Assembly: GCA_001003475.1 (NCBI GenBank)
Contig: LCPF01000001.1
Span: 234,571-298,570 of the forward strand
Source of the DNA: Candidatus Jorgensenbacteria bacterium GW2011_GWA1_48_11
Lineage (GTDB): Bacteria > Patescibacteriota > Minisyncoccia > UBA6257 > GWB1-50-10
Length of the DNA stretch: 64,000 nucleotides
Reading direction: 5' to 3'
This document shows, in pieces, positions 51,388 through 57,001 of the stretch. A model generated the notes under the pieces. That model was not told the DNA's origin. It saw only the letters and a program-made list of their open reading frames with translations, and did not search any database. Position 1 is the stretch's first letter. The number at the start of each line of letters is the position of its first letter. The position numbers and the translations under genes were made by a program.

Positions 51388-52251
51388 CTAAACGCCGAAA
51401 CTTTTTCGCCAGCGTTGGATATAGTCTTGAATGCTGAAAAAAACCGGGTCGGTCTTCAATTCGTCGTCACTGATTTCTTTGCGGAAAGCGGCCTTGCCAG
51501 CTAAAATCGCTTTAACGATTTCCAGAGCCTCCCGATATCTGTTGGCTACGTCTGTTTTGCCGTTTTTGAGAGCGTACGCTTTAAAGGCTTCCAGCTGAAT
51601 TTTGATTTCCTCAAGGATCATGAATTGGATTTTGTGTCTGGCTAGCTCTTTATTGTCGCGTTCCATCCAAACAGGAATTAATTCTTGGATGGTCTTGCGG
51701 CTGGCGCCGATAATGACAGCTGGTACGTTTCTTAATTCGCCGCGGATATGCAAACGTTCCGATGAAAAATATTTGATTCGCGGCAGGCGGCCAGCCTTGA
51801 TCTGATCCGTAATCCTGCCGAATTTTTTTGAAGTGTCGGCGGTGAAAGTGACGTCTATGCCCAAACCCAAATGGGTCGCTTCCTGCGGTTTTTCGAATTC
51901 AACTATGGCGTCAATGCCGTTTTCGTAATCGTCATAGCGAGAAGTTTTCCTCGTGAAAGCATTGGGTCCAAACCAGTCATTTAATTCGCCCTGCTCAATG
52001 ACAATTGCTTCGAAGACGTCGGCTAGCATTTTCATTTCCCGGGATTCCGGTGCCTGATTGGCCCGAAAACCGGCCTCCCGTGAGTTCGCGTTATCGATAT
52101 CGTGCTTGATCCTTGCCGCGTCATAAAGATCGGTAAAATCAGTTTCTCTGATGGCGGCCGCGGCGAGAACGCCTCGCGCTTTTTTGAGGGCGATTTCTAG
52201 GTCGGCACGTTCCAATGCGTCTTCAAATGGTTGTTCGTAAGGATGGCTCAT
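51388..52251 (-). CDS. Hypothetical protein (about 286 aa)
   Basis: Start taken at MSHPYEQ (52251), because the longer ORF would overlap tRNA-Lys. No recognisable motif. Confidence 0.45.
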   Translation of the reverse strand: MSHPYEQPFEDALERADLEIALKKARGVLAAAAIRETDFTDLYDAARIKHDIDNANSREAGFRANQAPESREMKMLADVFEAIVIEQGELNDWFGPNAFTRKTSRYDDYENGIDAIVEFEKPQEATHLGLGIDVTFTADTSKKFGRITDQIKAGRLPRIKYFSSERLHIRGELRNVPAVIIGASRKTIQELIPVWMERDNKELARHKIQFMILEEIKIQLEAFKAYALKNGKTDVANRYREALEIVKAILAGKAAFRKEISDDELKTDPVFFSIQDYIQRWRKSFGV

Positions 52252-52259
52252 GGTTTTAG

Positions 52260-52330
52260 TCCCCCCACTAGGAATCGAACCTAGATACACGGTTTAAGAG
52301 ACCGGTGCTTTACCATTAAGCTATGAGGGG
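52260..52330 (-). tRNA. tRNA-Lys (anticodon CTT); unusual C1-G72 start
   Basis: Acceptor CCCCTCA/TGGGGGG, D-arm GCTT…AAGC, anticodon loop CTCTTAA with a C27·U43 mismatch, T-loop TTCGATT. Confidence 0.65.
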
Positions 52331-52332
52331 AT

Positions 52333-53067
52333 TTATAAATTTACTGGAGGTCTTTGCGTAACTGTTAAACCTGACCATTTTCTCTGTTTTGATTTTATTT
52401 TAGGAACGATATCTTGTAAAGCCGCTTTTATCCATCCAAAAATTCTATGTTTCATATCAGTCCCTTTGGGTACGCGCACTTTTATGGTTCCGTAATATAA
52501 ATTATTTTTCTTATAACCTTTATTAGGAGGTTTTATAAAGCTTTTGCCGAATCTATTTAACGGTATTCCTGTAATATCAGACCAAAATCTTTTGATTTGT
52601 ATTTCATTCTGTTGCGGATAAATATTCAGATGAGCTTTCATTGTTTTGGGTGAAACGTGAAAAATATCTTCAAACCATTTAGTCGCGAAGGCAATGAGGC
52701 CGGGATCGGAATTTGTGATTTCGAAGTTTTTTGTCTTGCTTCCTTCGGCCCAGTATAAGGCAGCGCCGAAAAGTTTATAAGTTTCGTGCGACAGGGGGGT
52801 TTTAATTTCTTTTATTGCTTTTTCAATTATTTCTTCGATTTCCCGTTCTCTCCTTTCTTTTTGGCTTTTTGGCCCTTTCGTAAGTATTTGAATTTGCTTG
52901 GTGTAGAGTCGTTGGTGATGCTCTGGTTTCAAGGGTATTTCCTTAAGCCAGAGACTTAAAGTACTTTTAGCAATGGAGTTTTTAAGTTGTTTCCTGATTT
53001 CGTTATAACTCAAGCCTTTTTTGCGGAGGAGGACCGCATTAATTCTAAGCGATGGATCGCTTTTCAT
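52333..53067 (-). CDS. LAGLIDADG-type homing-endonuclease-like protein with an N-terminal HTH; low GC (about 38%)
   Basis: N-terminal …KGLSYNEIRKQL…STLSLWLK… (HTH). The central LFGAALYWAEGSK matches the LAGLIDADG (LxGxxDGDGS-like) helix, followed by the beta-strand pattern of that fold. A strong SD AGGAGGT lies 6 nt upstream. The gene directly abuts a truncated tRNA. Confidence 0.55.
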   Translation of the reverse strand: MKSDPSLRINAVLLRKKGLSYNEIRKQLKNSIAKSTLSLWLKEIPLKPEHHQRLYTKQIQILTKGPKSQKERREREIEEIIEKAIKEIKTPLSHETYKLFGAALYWAEGSKTKNFEITNSDPGLIAFATKWFEDIFHVSPKTMKAHLNIYPQQNEIQIKRFWSDITGIPLNRFGKSFIKPPNKGYKKNNLYYGTIKVRVPKGTDMKHRIFGWIKAALQDIVPKIKSKQRKWSGLTVTQRPPVNL

Positions 53068-53121: not shown

Positions 53122-53236
53122 TTTTATGATTCCTATTCTACCTGATTGATTTTTATTTTTGAAGCTTTAGAATATTTGGCAGTCCCCAATGTTCGCGGTT
53201 TCCGCTAGACGCATCCCTTCAGAACGGGGAGGAGAG

Positions 53237-53419
53237 ATGATTTGCAATTACGGCCGTCACCCGCATTACGGCGAGGAATCGGGGAGGTGTTCGGGGCATC
53301 CCGAGGAAGAACTGGTTTGCGGACCGGCAGTCCACGCCGTCTGCCTCAAGTGTCATCCCCGAATGGCCGAAGAGTGCCCCAACTGCCGCAAGCCCGCTTA
53401 TATTTGTCCTTGCCCATGA
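53237..53419 (+). CDS. Cys/His-rich 60-aa miniprotein (putative zinc-ribbon); GC-rich
   Basis: MICNYGRHPHYGEESGRCSGHPEEELVCGPAVHAVCLKCHPRMAEECPNCRKPAYICPCP: 9 Cys arranged in CxxC-like pairs, with GGAGG 5 nt upstream. The local GC content is well above the flanks. Confidence 0.35.
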   Translation: MICNYGRHPHYGEESGRCSGHPEEELVCGPAVHAVCLKCHPRMAEECPNCRKPAYICPCP

Positions 53420-53517
53420 GCGGCGGTGCCCAAAGCACCGCCGCGTCCATTTTTGTTTGGCGCCAACCCGCCGTTTACCGGAAGATTAAAAACCGATTTT
53501 GTTATAATTAAGTCAAG

Positions 53518-53805
53518 ATGGCGGCAATCGGCGAACCTTCGCAATCCCAGAAAAAAACGGTCATAACCATCGCCTTGGCGATTTTGGTAGTGGTTTTAAT
53601 AGCCGTCGTTTATTGGCGGTTCGGGCTCAAGAGCGCGGCGACGCCGGCGGAACAGGCGGCCGATTCTTTCCAAAAAGCGGTTGATTCCGCCGCCGGTATC
53701 CTGCCGGAAATAGATCCCGCTTCCAATCCCTTGGAGCAAATGCCGGACATAAACGCGGTTGAAAGATCTAATCCTTTCACGGATATCAAAATCAATCCAT
53801 TTTAG
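53518..53805 (+). CDS. Small membrane protein (95 aa) ending …IKINPF
   Basis: One TM helix; its C-terminus resembles that of the 34585..34875 protein. Confidence 0.4.
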   Translation: MAAIGEPSQSQKKTVITIALAILVVVLIAVVYWRFGLKSAATPAEQAADSFQKAVDSAAGILPEIDPASNPLEQMPDINAVERSNPFTDIKINPF

Positions 53806-53813
53806 CGGGAATC

Positions 53814-55355
53814 ATGAGGACAAAATATTTGCTTAGCGGGATTATTTTAAGCGCGGGTATCGTTACTGCCGTTTTTTTGATAACGAATGTTTTTGCCCAG
53901 ACCGCGTCCGCGCCGGCGGGCAATACCGCGAACGTCCAATTTCCCGTGCCGGAGTTGGGCAATTGCCGGAGCGAAACAGATTGCCGTTCTTTTTGCGATA
54001 AACCGGAAAACAGTCAGGCTTGTCTGAGTTTCGCGGAGAAAAACAATTTGATGTCGGCGGAAGAAATTGCCGCCGCCAAAAAGTTTTTGGCAGTCGGCAA
54101 GGGCCCGGGCGGCTGCACCACCAAAGATTCTTGTGAGAATTATTGCAACAGCACGGATCATATTAATGAATGCGTGGCTTTTGCGGAGAAAACCGGCATT
54201 TTGCCGCCGCAAGATCTAGCTGAAGCGAAGAAGGTTCAAGCGGCCTTGGCGCGGGGCCTTACGCCGCCCGGCAACTGCAAGAGCAAGCAGGATTGTGACA
54301 ATTATTGTTCGGATCCCGGCCATATGGAAGAATGCGTTACTTTTGCGGAAAAAGCCGGCTTCATGCCGGAGAATGAAATAGCTGAAGCCCATAAAGTTTT
54401 GGCGGCGATCAAAAAAGGCGCGAAGCCGCCGCCCTGCCGCGGCAAGGCGGAATGCGACGCTTATTGCGCCGAGCCGGTCAATTTCGAGCAGTGCATCTCC
54501 TTTGCCGAAGCGGCCGGATTCATGACGCCGGACGAGGCAGTGATGGCGCGGAAGACCGGCGGCAAGGGCCCGGGGGATTGTAAAAGCAAAGAACAATGCG
54601 AAGTGTTTTGCGAGGATCCGGCCAATCAGGAAATTTGTTTCAATTTCGCTAAAGAGCACGGCCTGATTTCTCAAGCCGACCTCCAAAAAATGGAAGAAGG
54701 TCGGGGGCAGATGATGCGGGGGTTTACCCAAGCGCCACCCGAAGTAATGGAGTGTCTTACGGGCGCTCTTGGCAGTGAAACAATCGAAAAGTTGAAAACC
54801 GGCACGGCAATGCCGAGCCGCGATATAGGAGATAAAATGCGCGAATGTTTTGAAAGAATTGGGCCGCCCGGTTTTGAGGGCGGAGGAGCGCCAGGGGGAT
54901 TTAGCGGTCCGGGCGGTTGCAGCTCGCCTGAAGAATGCATGAAATTCTGTGAGAGCAATCCCGAAGCCTGCCAAAATTTCAAGCCGTCGTCCATCATGCC
55001 GCCCGTTAATTTTGAACCCAATAATCAGCCGCCGGGCGATTTCAGGCCGCCGGAAAACATGCAGCCGCTAGAAGGCGGCACGCCTAGCGGGCCGATGCCG
55101 GGCATGATGTCGCCGCAGGGCTTATTGCCAGGTCAGGAATTTAATCCGCTACAAACCTTCTCGCCGGGTAGTATGCCGCCACCCGGCTCATTGGGAGGCG
55201 CTGACATAATGCAGCCGCCGTCAGCGGAACAAATCCAACAAATGATGCAGCAGGGAATCCAGCAATTCCAGCAAATGGCGCCGCCGCCGGAATCGGCGCC
55301 GCCGCCCAGCGGAGGAAATCTTTGGCAGGCCGTTAAGGACTTTTTTAGCCGATAA
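53814..55355 (+). CDS. Secreted protein made of six tandem four-cysteine repeats of about 45 aa, plus a Pro/Gln/Met-rich low-complexity tail
   Basis: Signal peptide, then repeats of the form G(N/G/D)C(K/R)S(K/E)x(D/E)CxxYCxxPxxxxxC(V/I)xFAEKxG(F/I)(M/L)xxxExxEAxKVxAAxxxG, repeated six times with the last copy partial. The Cys spacing is C-x5/6-C-x3-C-x8/9-C. A C-terminal segment of about 130 aa is rich in P/Q/M/G. Confidence 0.7.
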   Translation: MRTKYLLSGIILSAGIVTAVFLITNVFAQTASAPAGNTANVQFPVPELGNCRSETDCRSFCDKPENSQACLSFAEKNNLMSAEEIAAAKKFLAVGKGPGGCTTKDSCENYCNSTDHINECVAFAEKTGILPPQDLAEAKKVQAALARGLTPPGNCKSKQDCDNYCSDPGHMEECVTFAEKAGFMPENEIAEAHKVLAAIKKGAKPPPCRGKAECDAYCAEPVNFEQCISFAEAAGFMTPDEAVMARKTGGKGPGDCKSKEQCEVFCEDPANQEICFNFAKEHGLISQADLQKMEEGRGQMMRGFTQAPPEVMECLTGALGSETIEKLKTGTAMPSRDIGDKMRECFERIGPPGFEGGGAPGGFSGPGGCSSPEECMKFCESNPEACQNFKPSSIMPPVNFEPNNQPPGDFRPPENMQPLEGGTPSGPMPGMMSPQGLLPGQEFNPLQTFSPGSMPPPGSLGGADIMQPPSAEQIQQMMQQGIQQFQQMAPPPESAPPPSGGNLWQAVKDFFSR

Positions 55356-55389
55356 ATCAACCCGCCTCAGCCGGGTTGGTTTGTTGTTG

Positions 55390-55461
55390 TGCCCCCGCCA
55401 GGAATTGAACCTGGATTTCATGGTTCGAAGCCATGCGTGATATCCGTTTCACTACAGGGGC
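55390..55461 (-). tRNA. tRNA-Arg (anticodon TCG)
   Basis: Acceptor GCCCCTG/CGGGGGC, D-arm GTGA…TCAC, anticodon stem CATGG/CCATG with loop CTTCGAA, T-loop TTCAATT. Confidence 0.7.
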
Positions 55462-55504
55462 GCTTTATATTTTTTCGTTTCCAAAGTTCAGTGTACAATT
55501 AGAA

Positions 55505-57001
55505 ATGATGAAGTTCAACGTTCCCAAGGAAATCAAAAATATCTCCGAAAAATTAGCGGGCGCCGGCTTTGAGGCTTATTTCGTCGGCGGCTGCGTGCGG
55601 GATTTGATGTTGAAACGGGAACCCAAAGATTGGGACGTTACGACGAATGCCAAGCCCGAAGAAATCCAGGGAATCTTTCCGGAAAGCGTTTACGAAAATA
55701 AGTTCGGCACGGTCGGCGTGAAGATCTCTGGGTCGCTTCAGGCGACCGGGACCCCGGCTGAAGGCCCAGGGGCTGACCCTGCAACAGACATCGTGGAGGT
55801 GACAACCTATCGGATAGAAGGCAAGTATACCGACAAGCGTCATCCCGACGACATAAAATCCGCCAAAACGATTAAGGAGGATCTGTCGCGCCGCGATTTT
55901 ACGGTCAATGCCTTGGCCATGGACCTGGCTGGCAAGATAATCGATCCTTACGGCGGCGTGAAAGATCTCAAGGCAAAGTTGGTGCGGACCGTCGGCGAGC
56001 CGCGGGCCCGTTTTGAAGAGGACGCTCTCCGGCTCCTGCGGGCCGTTCGTTTTGCCTGCGAGTTGGGATTTGAGATCGAGGTTGGAACCGGTGAGGCGAT
56101 CCGGCATCACGCCGGCCTTCTCGAAGCTGTCGCTAAAGAAAGAATCCGGGACGAATTTCAGAAAATGATCATGACGCCGCGGGCGGCCGAAGGCGTCATA
56201 CTGCTCGAAGATTACGGCTTGCTGCAGTACGTGATGCCGGAACTTCGGGAAGGAATCGGCTGCGGGCAGAATAAGCATCATATTTATACGGTTTTCGAGC
56301 ACAATGTCCGGGCTTTGAATTATACGGCCGAGAAGAATTATTCTTTGGTCGTCCGCTTGGCGGCTCTGCTCCATGACGTCGGAAAGCCGAGGACGAAAAG
56401 AGGCGAAGGGCCGGATTCCACTTTTTATAACCACGAAACCGTGGGCGCGAAAATGGCGGTTAAAATAATGGATCGGCTGCGGTTTCCGAAGGAAATAGTC
56501 GAAGGCGTCGGCCATCTGGTCCGCTATCATCTTTTTTATTACAATGTCGGCGAAGTGACCGAGGCCGGCGTGCGCCGGTTTTTGTCCCGGGTCGGGCCGG
56601 AGAACGTGGACGATTTCATCAGGGTGCGGGAAGCGGACCGGATCGGTTCGGGCGTGCCCAAAGCCGTACCTTATAAAATCCGTCACCTGCTCTTCATGAT
56701 CGAAAAAGTGAAGCATGATCCGATCCATCCCAAAATGCTTAAGATCAAAGGCGACGACGTGATGAAGATTTTGGGAATCGAACCCGGGCCCAAAGTCGGC
56801 CAAATTCTTTCGATTCTTCTCGAGGAGGTTTTGGACGAGCCGAAGAAAAATGAAGTCGAATATCTCACGGCCCAAGTTAAAAAATTAGGCGTTTATTCCG
56901 ACAAGGATTTGCATCAGCTTTCGGGGAAGGCCCGGGAAAAGAAAGACGAGTTCGAGACCGGGGTTGAAGCCGAGATGAAGAAGAAGTACTATGTGAAGTA
57001 G
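55505..57001 (+). CDS. cca: CCA-adding enzyme / tRNA nucleotidyltransferase (Pol-beta-like head plus HD domain)
   Basis: …AYFVGGCVRDLML…DWDVTT… nucleotidyltransferase motif and a central HD motif (…LLHDVGKP…). Start taken at MMKFN (55505), since the ORF-track start overlaps the tRNA. Confidence 0.8.
   Translation: MMKFNVPKEIKNISEKLAGAGFEAYFVGGCVRDLMLKREPKDWDVTTNAKPEEIQGIFPESVYENKFGTVGVKISGSLQATGTPAEGPGADPATDIVEVTTYRIEGKYTDKRHPDDIKSAKTIKEDLSRRDFTVNALAMDLAGKIIDPYGGVKDLKAKLVRTVGEPRARFEEDALRLLRAVRFACELGFEIEVGTGEAIRHHAGLLEAVAKERIRDEFQKMIMTPRAAEGVILLEDYGLLQYVMPELREGIGCGQNKHHIYTVFEHNVRALNYTAEKNYSLVVRLAALLHDVGKPRTKRGEGPDSTFYNHETVGAKMAVKIMDRLRFPKEIVEGVGHLVRYHLFYYNVGEVTEAGVRRFLSRVGPENVDDFIRVREADRIGSGVPKAVPYKIRHLLFMIEKVKHDPIHPKMLKIKGDDVMKILGIEPGPKVGQILSILLEEVLDEPKKNEVEYLTAQVKKLGVYSDKDLHQLSGKAREKKDEFETGVEAEMKKKYYVK

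What the first reader, a model, noticed from the sequence alone, without database searches (positions are those of the whole stretch)
53814..55355. Secreted protein built from six tandem copies of an undescribed four-cysteine repeat of about 45 aa
After a signal peptide the protein consists of repeats with the fixed pattern G-x-C-(K/R)-S-x3-C-x2-(Y/F)-C-x6/7-C-x-x-F-A-E-K-x-G-(F/I)-(M/L)…E-x2-E-A-x-K-V…. It ends in a 130-aa Pro/Gln/Met-rich, collagen-free low-complexity tail. Four strictly spaced Cys per unit suggest a disulfide-stabilised or metal-binding extracellular module. I cannot assign it to a known domain family. It is encoded next to the mobile-element-like stretch at 52.3–53.5 kb.
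Basis: seen in the sequence. Interest (0 to 1): 0.55.

Follow-up and report, generated by a model that had tools for sequence, protein, structure and literature searches.

The report
Cysteine-stapled helical repeat surface protein pair
This is a real exported protein of a Parcubacteria (CPR) bacterium, built from an uncatalogued four-cysteine, three-helix repeat and always encoded just after a tiny membrane protein, so the two probably form a lineage-specific cell-envelope module whose job is still unknown.

Summary
ORF 53814..55355 (+) encodes a 513-aa protein with a Sec-type signal peptide. It has five full units and one truncated unit with the spacing C-x5-C-x3-C-x8(6)-C, a 2-Cys helical insert, a 131-aa P/Q/G-rich tail and a short amphipathic C-terminal helix.

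AlphaFold2 models residues 40-350 with block-mean pLDDT of 87-96, all-alpha, with three helices per unit. The family has 1,834 clusters at 50% identity, all seen in Parcubacteria-type CPR genomes, usually with seven units. All four Cys are kept in 1,956 of 1,958 units.

New here: a roughly 90-aa single-pass membrane protein ending in ...NPF lies immediately upstream on the same strand in 85 of 85 testable loci, and also in two divergent long members. No other neighbour is conserved.

Best reading: an extracytoplasmic, disulfide-stapled alpha-helical scaffold that works with this membrane partner. Its function is untested. The adjacent mobile-looking stretch is a separate 1.2-kb insertion.

The parts
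53518..53805 (+). Partner gene: a 95-aa single-pass membrane protein (KKU91697.1). It has a short basic N-terminus, one TM helix, a variable linker, and a conserved extracytoplasmic C-terminal peptide GILPE..NPLE..PDIN....NPF..IKINPF-COOH.
   Evidence: Homologue immediately upstream on the same strand in 85 of 85 testable loci, with gaps mostly -8 to +30 nt. Alignments. Also present upstream of the divergent long members P0142 and P0137. No Pfam, NCBIfam or PHROG family.
53814..55355 (+). Gene for the 513-aa four-cysteine repeat protein (KKU91698.1, UniProt A0A0G1WMY2). It starts 8 nt after the partner's stop codon.
   Evidence: 1,232 homologues at E<=1e-3, the best 120 at about 50% identity over 87-100% (mostly 98-100%) of the length.
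53814..53897 (+). Signal peptide (aa 1-28, MRTK, hydrophobic core, VFA|QT). Sec type, with no twin-arginine motif and no lipobox Cys.
   Evidence: Read from the sequence. The A-Q junction is conserved in alignment A1. 96% of 266 members have an N-terminal hydrophobic segment. Cleavage is inferred, not shown.
53952..54101 (+). Unit 1 (aa 47-96), Cys 51/57/61/70.
   Evidence: AF2 helices 54-61, 64-76, 82-94 with high confidence.
54102..54263 (+). Unit 2 (aa 97-150), Cys 101/107/111/120.
   Evidence: helices 104-111, 114-127, 132-146.
54264..54422 (+). Unit 3 (aa 151-203), Cys 155/161/165/174.
   Evidence: helices 158-165, 168-181, 186-200.
54423..54566 (+). Unit 4 (aa 204-251), Cys 208/214/218/227. 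A hybrid unit left by an in-register deletion of one or two units relative to most homologues.
   Evidence: Gap in the window row at columns 288-340 of alignment A1. Unit counts. Helices 210-219, 221-233, 239-248.
54567..54731 (+). Unit 5 (aa 252-306), Cys 256/262/266/275. Its third helix is extended. This is the most conserved unit across species (GPGxCKGKEECExFCNNPxNQETCFNFAKE).
   Evidence: Orthologous identity 0.75 for this position.
54732..54905 (+). Conserved 2-Cys helical insert (aa 307-364, APPEV..C314L ... MPSRDIGDKMR.C345FE), followed by a Gly/Pro linker.
   Evidence: C314 nearly invariant and C345 invariant across 120 members. Helices 309-319, 321-329, 336-349, pLDDT about 90.
54906..54983 (+). 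Unit 6 (aa 365-390), truncated: GPGGC-x5-C-x3-C-x6-C with no third helix.
   Evidence: The x6 spacing is typical of the terminal unit (130 x6 units against 720 x8 units in 120 proteins). Helix 372-381.
54984..55307 (+). Low-complexity P/Q/G-rich tail (aa 391-498), predicted disordered.
   Evidence: Composition. pLDDT below 50. Family tails are P 16.5%, Q 10.6%, G 10.3%, E 9.3%.
55308..55352 (+). C-terminal amphipathic helix (aa 499-513, PPPSGGNLWQAVKDFFSR). The family consensus is PPPPS..S(L/F)LGS(I/L)xxxFxKxF.
   Evidence: 18-residue hydropathy median 0.9, too low for a full TM helix. AF2 helix 503-512.

Best explanation
The two genes 53518..53805 and 53814..55355 form a conserved operon specific to Parcubacteria. 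It encodes an extracytoplasmic module.

**The large protein.** It is exported through Sec and its signal peptide is probably cleaved. It folds outside the cell into a rod or solenoid of three-helix units of about 50 aa.
- In each unit, the C2-x3-C3 pair on helix 1 is clamped by two disulfides to C1 in the N-terminal arm and to C4 on helix 2. The connectivity is probably C1-C3 and C2-C4.
- The 2-Cys insert and the truncated last unit cap the array.
- A disordered Pro/Gln-rich stalk and a short amphipathic helix follow.

**The small protein.** It sits in the membrane with its conserved NPx-rich tail outside. That tail always ends in NPF-COOH.

**The proposed interaction.** I propose that this tail is the ligand that docks the cleaved, otherwise free, scaffold to the cell surface. 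This would resemble the way TPR/Sel1-type alpha-solenoids hold extended or C-terminal peptides. The complex would then serve as a structural or adaptor element of the envelope, presenting the Pro-rich stalk or, in longer relatives, lectin-like domains.

**Shown:** the gene, the repeat, its conservation, the confident all-alpha model, the lack of any curated family, and the strict gene pairing.
**Inferred:** export and cleavage, disulfides rather than metal, the connectivity, the physical interaction and the envelope role.
For: **Reality and repeat.**

**Family.** One search found 1,232 homologues. One search found 1,834 clusters at 50% identity, and all of the best 150 carry 6-13 units. One search found the family in 344 species genomes, with Parcubacteria-type titles.

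**Constraint on the cysteines.** 1,956 of 1,958 units keep all four Cys. Total Cys count is even in 109 of 120 proteins. Tail Cys count is even in 202 of 205, mostly as C-x4-C loops.

**Integrated structure rather than beads.** The AF2 block-mean pLDDT is 87-96 across aa 40-350, and the model is all-alpha. Each unit position has its own identity: orthologous units are 59-75% identical, paralogous units 28-53%.

**Extracytoplasmic location.**
- Signal peptides are present.
- Longer members add Laminin_G_3 or Kazal domains.
- CPR genomes are enriched in an MdbA-like thiol-disulfide oxidoreductase plus VKOR, so exported disulfides are feasible (PMC6744442, read).

**Partner.** It is present in 85 of 85 loci with tiny or overlapping gaps. 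It is also upstream of the divergent members P0142 and P0137. It is the only conserved neighbour among 88 loci. Its extreme C-terminus is NPF plus 0-1 residues in nearly all cases.
Against: - No experiment or complex model supports the docking step.
- The number of NP motifs in the partner does not track the number of units (r = 0.11), so there is no sign of one-motif-per-unit binding.
- Coordinates of the model were not available, so Cys-Cys distances, and therefore disulfide versus metal site, were not checked.
- The C-terminal helix or the Pro-rich tail could be the real anchor, with the small protein acting as an assembly or export factor instead.
- The envelope role rests only on location and conservation.
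Confidence: 0.55

Rival explanations
1. Each unit is a Cys4 metal site (Zn, Cu(I), Fe or an Fe-S centre) rather than two disulfides. On this reading the protein is an extracellular metal store or buffer, or a chain of redox centres lined up along a helical rod.
For: Four invariant Cys per unit, with C-x3-C on a helix. The habitats of these groundwater organisms are often anoxic (general knowledge, not checked here). In one relative the neighbouring gene is an HMA/P-type ATPase (L005). The window protein's tail is Met-rich.
Against: - The signal peptide is Sec type without a twin-arginine motif, so a cofactor-loaded protein could not be exported folded.
- The metal-transporter neighbour is not conserved.
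- Met-richness is not a family trait.
- Cys elsewhere in the family also come strictly in pairs (C-x4-C loops, the 2-Cys insert), and they co-occur with classical disulfide domains such as Kazal.
- CPR genomes encode MdbA/VKOR-type oxidising machinery.
- The conserved H/N before C4 alternates as a helix N-cap would, not as a ligand would.
Confidence: 0.15
2. The protein is a polyprotein precursor of defensin-like antimicrobial peptides. The conserved G-x-K-P-P/G-P-G-G linkers would be processing sites that release Cys-rich peptides of about 50 aa against hosts or competitors.
For: Borderline PF25052 AtDEF-like hit and weak Nodulin_late and Euplotes-pheromone hits to the C-x5-C-x3-C segment. 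Tandem units with conserved linkers. A secretion signal.
Against: - The hit is below Pfam's cutoff without the signal peptide, and most members lack it.
- The predicted fold is all-alpha and continuous across unit boundaries, with high confidence.
- Unit positions are individually conserved across species, which is unlike interchangeable peptides.
- The core is acidic, pI about 4.8, whereas most defensin-like peptides are cationic (general knowledge).
- The conserved insert, tail, C-terminal helix and membrane partner have no role in such a model.
Confidence: 0.05
3. The large protein is tethered by its own Pro-rich stalk and C-terminal amphipathic helix. The small protein is not an anchor but a dedicated export, folding or assembly factor, or a co-secreted substrate, for the repeat protein.
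For: The C-terminal helix motif preceded by PPPPS is conserved. Translational coupling of the two genes fits a chaperone-client pair equally well. NP-motif and unit numbers do not correlate.
Against: The C-terminal helix is too short and too amphipathic for a transmembrane anchor. It is missing in some members that end in Pro-rich sequence or in other domains, whereas the partner is still present. The most conserved part of the partner is its extracytoplasmic extreme C-terminus, which is typical of a docking peptide.
Confidence: 0.2
4. The gene is cargo of the neighbouring mobile-looking element at 52.3-53.5 kb.
For: It lies 450 nt from a sporadically distributed 244-aa ORF that abuts tRNA-Lys.
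Against: Four related genomes keep the same order (RecG, 300-aa gene, tRNA-Lys, small gene, large gene, tRNA-Arg, CCA enzyme, tRNA-Pro) without the 244-aa ORF. The pair is found in hundreds of species in unrelated neighbourhoods.
Confidence: 0.02

Closest known systems
Helicobacter cysteine-rich proteins (HcpA/B/C), Sel1-like repeat family
   Same: Secreted bacterial proteins built from tandem alpha-helical repeats, in which each repeat is stapled by disulfide bonding, giving a solenoid that is thought to bind ligands on its concave face. This is the closest analogue in design (own knowledge of the family).
TPR/PPR-type alpha-solenoids that hold C-terminal or extended peptides (for example Hop TPR with EEVD-COOH, PEX5 with SKL-COOH)
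   Same: A rod of repeated helices. The best, non-significant, Foldseek matches are designed PPR, IFIT and TPR proteins. The proposed recognition of the partner's invariant NPF-COOH end would work in the same way.
   Different: E-values are 0.2 or worse and TM-scores 0.17 or lower. Those families are cytoplasmic and cysteine-free. The peptide binding proposed here is untested.
Plant defensin-like family PF25052 (AtDEF-like) and the cystine-stabilised helix motif
   Same: A signal peptide followed by the spacing C-x5-C-x3-C-x8/9-C, with C-x3-C on a helix. This explains the borderline Pfam score.
   Different: Defensins are single alpha/beta domains of about 50 aa with 8 Cys, and are cationic. 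This protein is a multi-unit, all-alpha, acidic protein. The score is below the gathering threshold without the signal peptide, and the hit is absent in most members.
Small disulfide-rich three-helix bundles (Euplotes raikovi pheromones, PF06360)
   Same: Three short helices of about 40-50 aa, cross-linked by disulfides and secreted. There is a weak hit to unit 1 (E = 0.013, 16.4 bits).
   Different: That family has six Cys in a different pattern, is single-domain and eukaryotic. The score is far below the cutoff of 25.
XRE / lambda-repressor-like helical bundles

Membership tests
PF25052 AtDEF-like (defensin-like) | Score at or above Pfam's gathering threshold (25 bits) on the mature Cys-rich domain. 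| tested here: not met
   25.7 bits only when the signal peptide is included (aa 18-76). The mature protein scores 21.5 bits and single units 15.8-17 bits.
PF25052 AtDEF-like (defensin-like) | The hit is shared by the homologous family. | tested here: not met
   5 of 22 members reach E<0.01. 3 of the 120 best homologues carry the precomputed domain.
PF25052 AtDEF-like (defensin-like) | Cysteine-stabilised alpha/beta fold (a helix packed on a beta-sheet). | tested here: not met
   The AF2 model is all-alpha at block-mean pLDDT 87-96, with no beta-sheet.
Sel1-like repeat / Helicobacter Hcp | Match to the Sel1 repeat profile (PF08238); helix pair of about 36 aa. | tested here: not met
   No Sel1, TPR or related Pfam hit at E<=10 on single units or the whole mature protein. 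The unit is about 50 aa with three helices.
Sel1-like repeat / Helicobacter Hcp | Structural superposition on solved Hcp/SLR solenoids. | tested here: not met
New Parcubacteria four-Cys repeat family (defined here) | Tandem units with C-x5-C-x3-C-x8-C and the flanking Y/F and F-A/G-E motifs. | tested here: met
New Parcubacteria four-Cys repeat family (defined here) | Full-length collinearity: signal peptide, units, 2-Cys insert, truncated unit, Pro-rich tail, amphipathic C-terminal helix. | tested here: met
   The best 120 homologues cover 87-100% (mostly 98-100%) of the query at about 50% identity. Alignments A1 and A2. C-termini.
New Parcubacteria four-Cys repeat family (defined here) | A small TM protein with an NPF-COOH tail encoded immediately upstream. 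| tested here: met
   Window 53518..53805. 85 of 85 loci..
Disulfide-bonded extracytoplasmic protein | Oxidised cysteines in the mature protein. | not testable with these tools
   Only indirect support: even Cys counts, a Sec signal, and MdbA/VKOR enrichment in CPR.

The most novel reading that the evidence does not exclude
The pair is a lineage-defining surface apparatus of Parcubacteria. A membrane protein presents an NPF-COOH peptide, and a disulfide-stapled alpha-solenoid of a previously unseen repeat class captures it. The assembly would mediate envelope organisation or attachment to host cells. In the more radical version, the six to eight evenly spaced Cys4 sites bind metal and form an extracellular redox or metal-handling rod. 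Either version would give a first functional handle on one of the Parcubacteria-enriched 'hypothetical membrane' families noted by Meheust et al. 2019.
Probability: 0.12. Interest if true: 0.75.

Novelty: new variant of a known kind. Interest (0 to 1): 0.45.

Why it matters
CPR/Patescibacteria make up a large share of bacterial diversity, and most of their lineage-specific surface proteins are unannotated. This work turns one "hypothetical protein" into a defined family:
- 1,834 clusters at 50% identity;
- a confidently predicted but unmatched all-alpha repeat;
- absolute conservation of four Cys per unit;
- an obligatory membrane partner.

It also yields concrete, cheap experiments: the redox state of the cysteines, peptide binding, and localisation. 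If the module proves to organise the envelope or to mediate host attachment, it would be a useful marker and target for studying how Parcubacteria live. If not, it is at least a candidate new Pfam repeat and a new example of a disulfide-stapled alpha-solenoid.

Tried and rejected
1. **Complex prediction.** The interaction therefore stays untested.
2. **AFDB search.** The afdb50 Foldseek library was not installed.
3. **Disulfide connectivity from natural Cys losses.** Only 2 of 1,958 units lack a Cys, so there was nothing to learn from this.
4. **One NP motif per unit.** There is no correlation (r = 0.11), so the idea was dropped.
5. **Copper or Met-motif idea for the tail.** Met enrichment is peculiar to the window protein and a few relatives (median 2.9%), so it was dropped as a family feature.
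6. **DNA binding.** The core is acidic, pI about 4.8, so this was rejected.
7. **S-layer protein.** Considered and thought unlikely, because S-layer proteins are typically Cys-poor (own knowledge).
8. **Natural fusions of the two proteins.** None among 266 members.
9. **DNA-level tandem repeat.** None.
10. **Literature.** Searches for the accessions and for Cys-rich repeats in Parcubacteria found nothing specific.
11. **Word-index search with the 95-aa partner.** It found only 2 proteins. The local HMM on fetched loci was the informative route.
Full report
**What is there.** The window carries an ORF at 53814..55355 on the + strand that encodes 513 aa.
- The protein has 26 cysteines. The spacing C-x5-C-x3-C-x6/8-C occurs six times, at aa 51-70, 101-120, 155-174, 208-227, 256-275 and 369-386.
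- In 20,000 shuffles of the same protein the pattern never occurred more than once, and no other ORF in the 64-kb window has it.
- Cutting the protein at the units shows five complete units of 48-54 aa with a shared frame: (G/P)-P-G-x-C-x2-K-x2-C-x2-(Y/F)-C-x8-C-x2-F-(A/G)-E-x-x-G-(F/L)-x5-E-x3-A-x-K.
- Pairwise identity between these units is only 27-52%. Tandem Repeats Finder accordingly sees nothing at DNA level.
- The sixth 'copy' (aa 365-390) is only the cysteine half, with x6 spacing. A conserved helical insert with two further Cys (C314, C345) separates it from unit 5.
- The last 131 aa are rich in P, Q, G, S and M, and the protein ends in a short amphipathic segment.
- The N-terminus (MRTK, 19 hydrophobic residues, VFA|QT) is a typical Sec signal peptide, without a twin-arginine motif or a lipobox.

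**Identity of the locus.** The protein is identical to KKU91698.1 / UniProt A0A0G1WMY2, 'hypothetical protein UY23_C0001G0304' of Candidatus Jorgensenbacteria bacterium GW2011_GWA1_48_11. The 95-aa ORF just upstream is KKU91697.1. No paper in the searchable library mentions these accessions.

**Is it a known family?** No.
- Pfam gives one hit, PF25052 AtDEF-like, at 25.7 bits against a cutoff of 25, over aa 18-76. That region is the signal peptide plus unit 1.
- With the signal peptide removed the mature protein scores 21.5 bits and single units 16-17 bits.
- Only 5 of 22 family members reach E<0.01, and only 3 of the 120 closest homologues carry the precomputed domain.
- The match reflects the plant-defensin spacing C-x5-C-x3-C-x9-C and nothing more.
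- For this protein and its upstream partner, no NCBIfam hit reaches a family cutoff (the big protein has none) and PHROGs gives no named family.
- Profile searches of the whole family and of the single unit against all PDB sequences give nothing below E = 0.38.

**Structure.** AlphaFold2 with a 120-sequence alignment gives block-mean pLDDT of 87-96 for aa 40-350, and pTM 0.57.
- The model is entirely alpha-helical, and every unit has three helices.
- Helix 1 carries C2-x3-C3. Helix 2 starts two residues later and carries C4. Helix 3 is the E-x3-A-x-K segment. C1 sits in the extended arm before helix 1.
- The tail is disordered, and the last ten residues form a helix.
- Foldseek against the PDB finds only generic solenoids (designed PPR, IFIT, TPR) at E of 0.2 or worse and TM-scores of 0.17 or lower.
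- The repeat thus has no solved relative.
- From helix geometry I infer that C2 faces C4 and C3 faces C1, which implies C1-C3 and C2-C4 disulfides.

**Family and distribution.**
- The word-indexed search returned 1,232 homologues. The best 120 are about 50% identical over 87-100% (mostly 98-100%) of the query, are 436-620 aa long, and all those that carry a name are called hypothetical or proline-rich proteins of Parcubacteria-type MAGs.
- A profile of the single unit, searched against 1.84 billion representatives, finds 1,834 clusters (1,555 at E<=1e-10). All of the best 150 carry 6-13 units. The best-scoring members therefore all show this multi-unit architecture; the weaker hits were not listed and could not be inspected.
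- A scan of one genome per GTDB species found it in 344 genomes. Their titles name Jorgensen-, Wolfe-, Nealson-, Staskawicz-, Harrison-, Brenner-, Yanofsky-, Kaiser-, Wildermuth-, Taylor-, Terry-, Niyogi-, Lipton- and Gribaldobacteria.
- Seven units is the norm (75 of 120) and eight is common (27 of 120). The window protein's six result from an in-register deletion that fuses half of unit 4 to half of a later unit.
- All four Cys are present in 1,956 of 1,958 units.
- Each unit position has its own signature. The same position compared between species is 59-75% identical, while different positions are 28-53% identical. The array is therefore ancient and works as one integrated object, not as interchangeable beads.
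- Longer members append Laminin_G_3 (P0142, P0204, P0234), Kazal (P0149) or further Cys/Thr-rich modules (P0132, P0137). All of these are typical extracellular domains.

**The partner gene.** The main new finding is the 95-aa ORF at 53518..53805, which ends 8 nt before the repeat gene starts.
- Homologues of 85-100 aa sit in the same place in every locus first inspected.
- With a small HMM, the partner was found in 85 of 85 loci that have enough upstream sequence, with gaps mostly between -8 and +30 nt.
- Two very divergent members, of 1,062 and 1,431 aa, have it too.
- Clustering all ORFs of 88 loci shows that nothing else is conserved, apart from synteny among the closest relatives.
- The partner has a basic N-terminus, one transmembrane helix followed by G-Y-x-Y-W, a variable linker, and a conserved tail G-V-L-P-S..N-P-L-E..P-D-x-N-P..K-A-N-P-F-K-x-I-K-T-N-P-F. 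The tail ends at the C-terminus or one residue before it in nearly all sequences.
- It matches no curated family.

**Interpretation.** I read the pair as an extracytoplasmic module.
- Export and folding outside the cell are supported by the signal peptide, by the extracellular domains fused in relatives, and by the strict pairing of cysteines everywhere in the family. That pairing shows up as four Cys per unit, two in the insert, and even numbers in 202 of 205 tails, often as C-E-G-E-N-C loops.
- CPR genomes are enriched in an MdbA-like oxidoreductase and VKOR (Meheust et al. 2019, PMC6744442, read), so these cells can plausibly make extracytoplasmic disulfides.
- After signal-peptide cleavage the scaffold has no obvious anchor. 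Its C-terminal helix is too short and too amphipathic to span a membrane.
- The obligatory membrane partner, with its invariant exposed C-terminal peptide, is the natural candidate for the tether, by analogy with peptide capture by TPR/Sel1-type solenoids.
- That step is a hypothesis.

**Rivals.**
- A metal-site reading of the Cys4 units cannot be excluded. It is disfavoured by Sec export, by the pairing of Cys outside the units, and by the lack of any conserved metal-related neighbour.
- A defensin-like polyprotein is disfavoured by the continuous, confident all-alpha model, the position-specific conservation and the acidic pI.
- The idea that the gene belongs to the neighbouring mobile-looking stretch is refuted by synteny. 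Four related genomes have RecG, a 300-aa gene, tRNA-Lys, small gene, large gene, tRNA-Arg, CCA enzyme and tRNA-Pro in the same order. They lack the 1.2 kb that the window carries between tRNA-Lys and the small gene.

**Comparison with known systems.**
- In design, the closest known proteins are the Helicobacter cysteine-rich (Sel1-like repeat) proteins: secreted alpha-helical repeats with a disulfide per repeat. Repeat length, helix number, Cys pattern, profile matches and structure searches all fail for membership.
- The cystine-stabilised-helix motif of defensins explains the one marginal Pfam score, but the fold differs.

I therefore classify this as a new variant of a known kind, namely disulfide-stapled extracellular alpha-repeat proteins. 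It is an uncurated repeat family with a new obligatory partner. It is not a categorically new system, because no new mechanism has been demonstrated.

**Verdict.** Interest is moderate (0.45). A CPR specialist would value a lineage-wide, two-gene surface module with a confidently modelled but unmatched repeat. Its function is unknown, and many such lineage-specific families exist.

Noticed in passing
window 52333-53067 (-), with tRNA-Lys(ctt) at 52259-52330 (-): A 244-aa ORF with a weak N-terminal HTH hint and no family ends 2 nt before tRNA-Lys. A 59%-identical homologue in L062 (2729-3457) lies 10 nt upstream of that genome's tRNA-Lys, and two more homologues occur in L050 and L045. The ORF is absent from the syntenic relatives L009, L019, L011 and L008. 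It therefore looks like a sporadic selfish or inserted gene associated with tRNA-Lys.
   Followed up: partly
window 53189-53444 (+): A 76-aa Cys-rich ORF (C-x2-C-type motifs, zinc-ribbon-like) has a promoter-like site at 53146-53173. It is directly followed by a strong terminator-like hairpin (10-bp stem with 9 G-C pairs, then a T run) at 53420-53444. It has no homologue in any of the 88 loci, and it is part of the same roughly 1.2-kb insertion.
   Followed up: partly
window 52250-52290 and 55389-55505: Two mechanical ORF starts overlap tRNA genes.
- The 300-aa ORF 51388..52290 begins 'MYLGSIPSGGTK', which is tRNA-Lys read as protein. Its real start is probably the Met at 'MSHPYEQ'.
- The CCA-adding-enzyme ORF 55433..57001 overlaps tRNA-Arg(tcg) at 55389-55461. 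Homologues align only from residue 19-30, mostly about 25.
   Followed up: no
L008, L010, L025 and other 'uncultured Candidatus Saccharibacteria' TPA MAGs; L035, L046, L056: Many loci labelled Saccharibacteria share 55-58% identity, and L008 and L025 also share the tRNA/CCA synteny with Jorgensenbacteria, so the label is probably a coarse taxonomy mapping. Single loci labelled Methylomirabilis, Gammaproteobacteria and Aenigmatarchaeota also carry the gene, and these are probably mis-binned Parcubacteria contigs.
   Followed up: no
tails of homologues, e.g. P0009, P0015, P0102 (alignment A1 columns 640-760): Many family tails contain short C-(E/Q)-G-(E/D)-N-C loops and extra truncated GPGGC..C..C..C units. 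Tail Cys numbers are even in 202 of 205 proteins. The window protein's tail has none.
   Followed up: partly
L001 8009-8386, L006 7832-9093 and five further loci: A stand-alone response-regulator gene lies just downstream of the pair in 7 of 88 loci; in L006 a histidine-kinase gene follows it. This is not conserved enough to be part of the module, but it is a possible regulatory link.
   Followed up: no
L005 7991-13854: In one relative the pair is next to a copper-type P-type ATPase (HMA + E1-E2 ATPase), DUF2933, DUF1573 and a DsbD/CcdA-like membrane protein. This is suggestive for thiol or metal chemistry, but it was seen only once.
   Followed up: no
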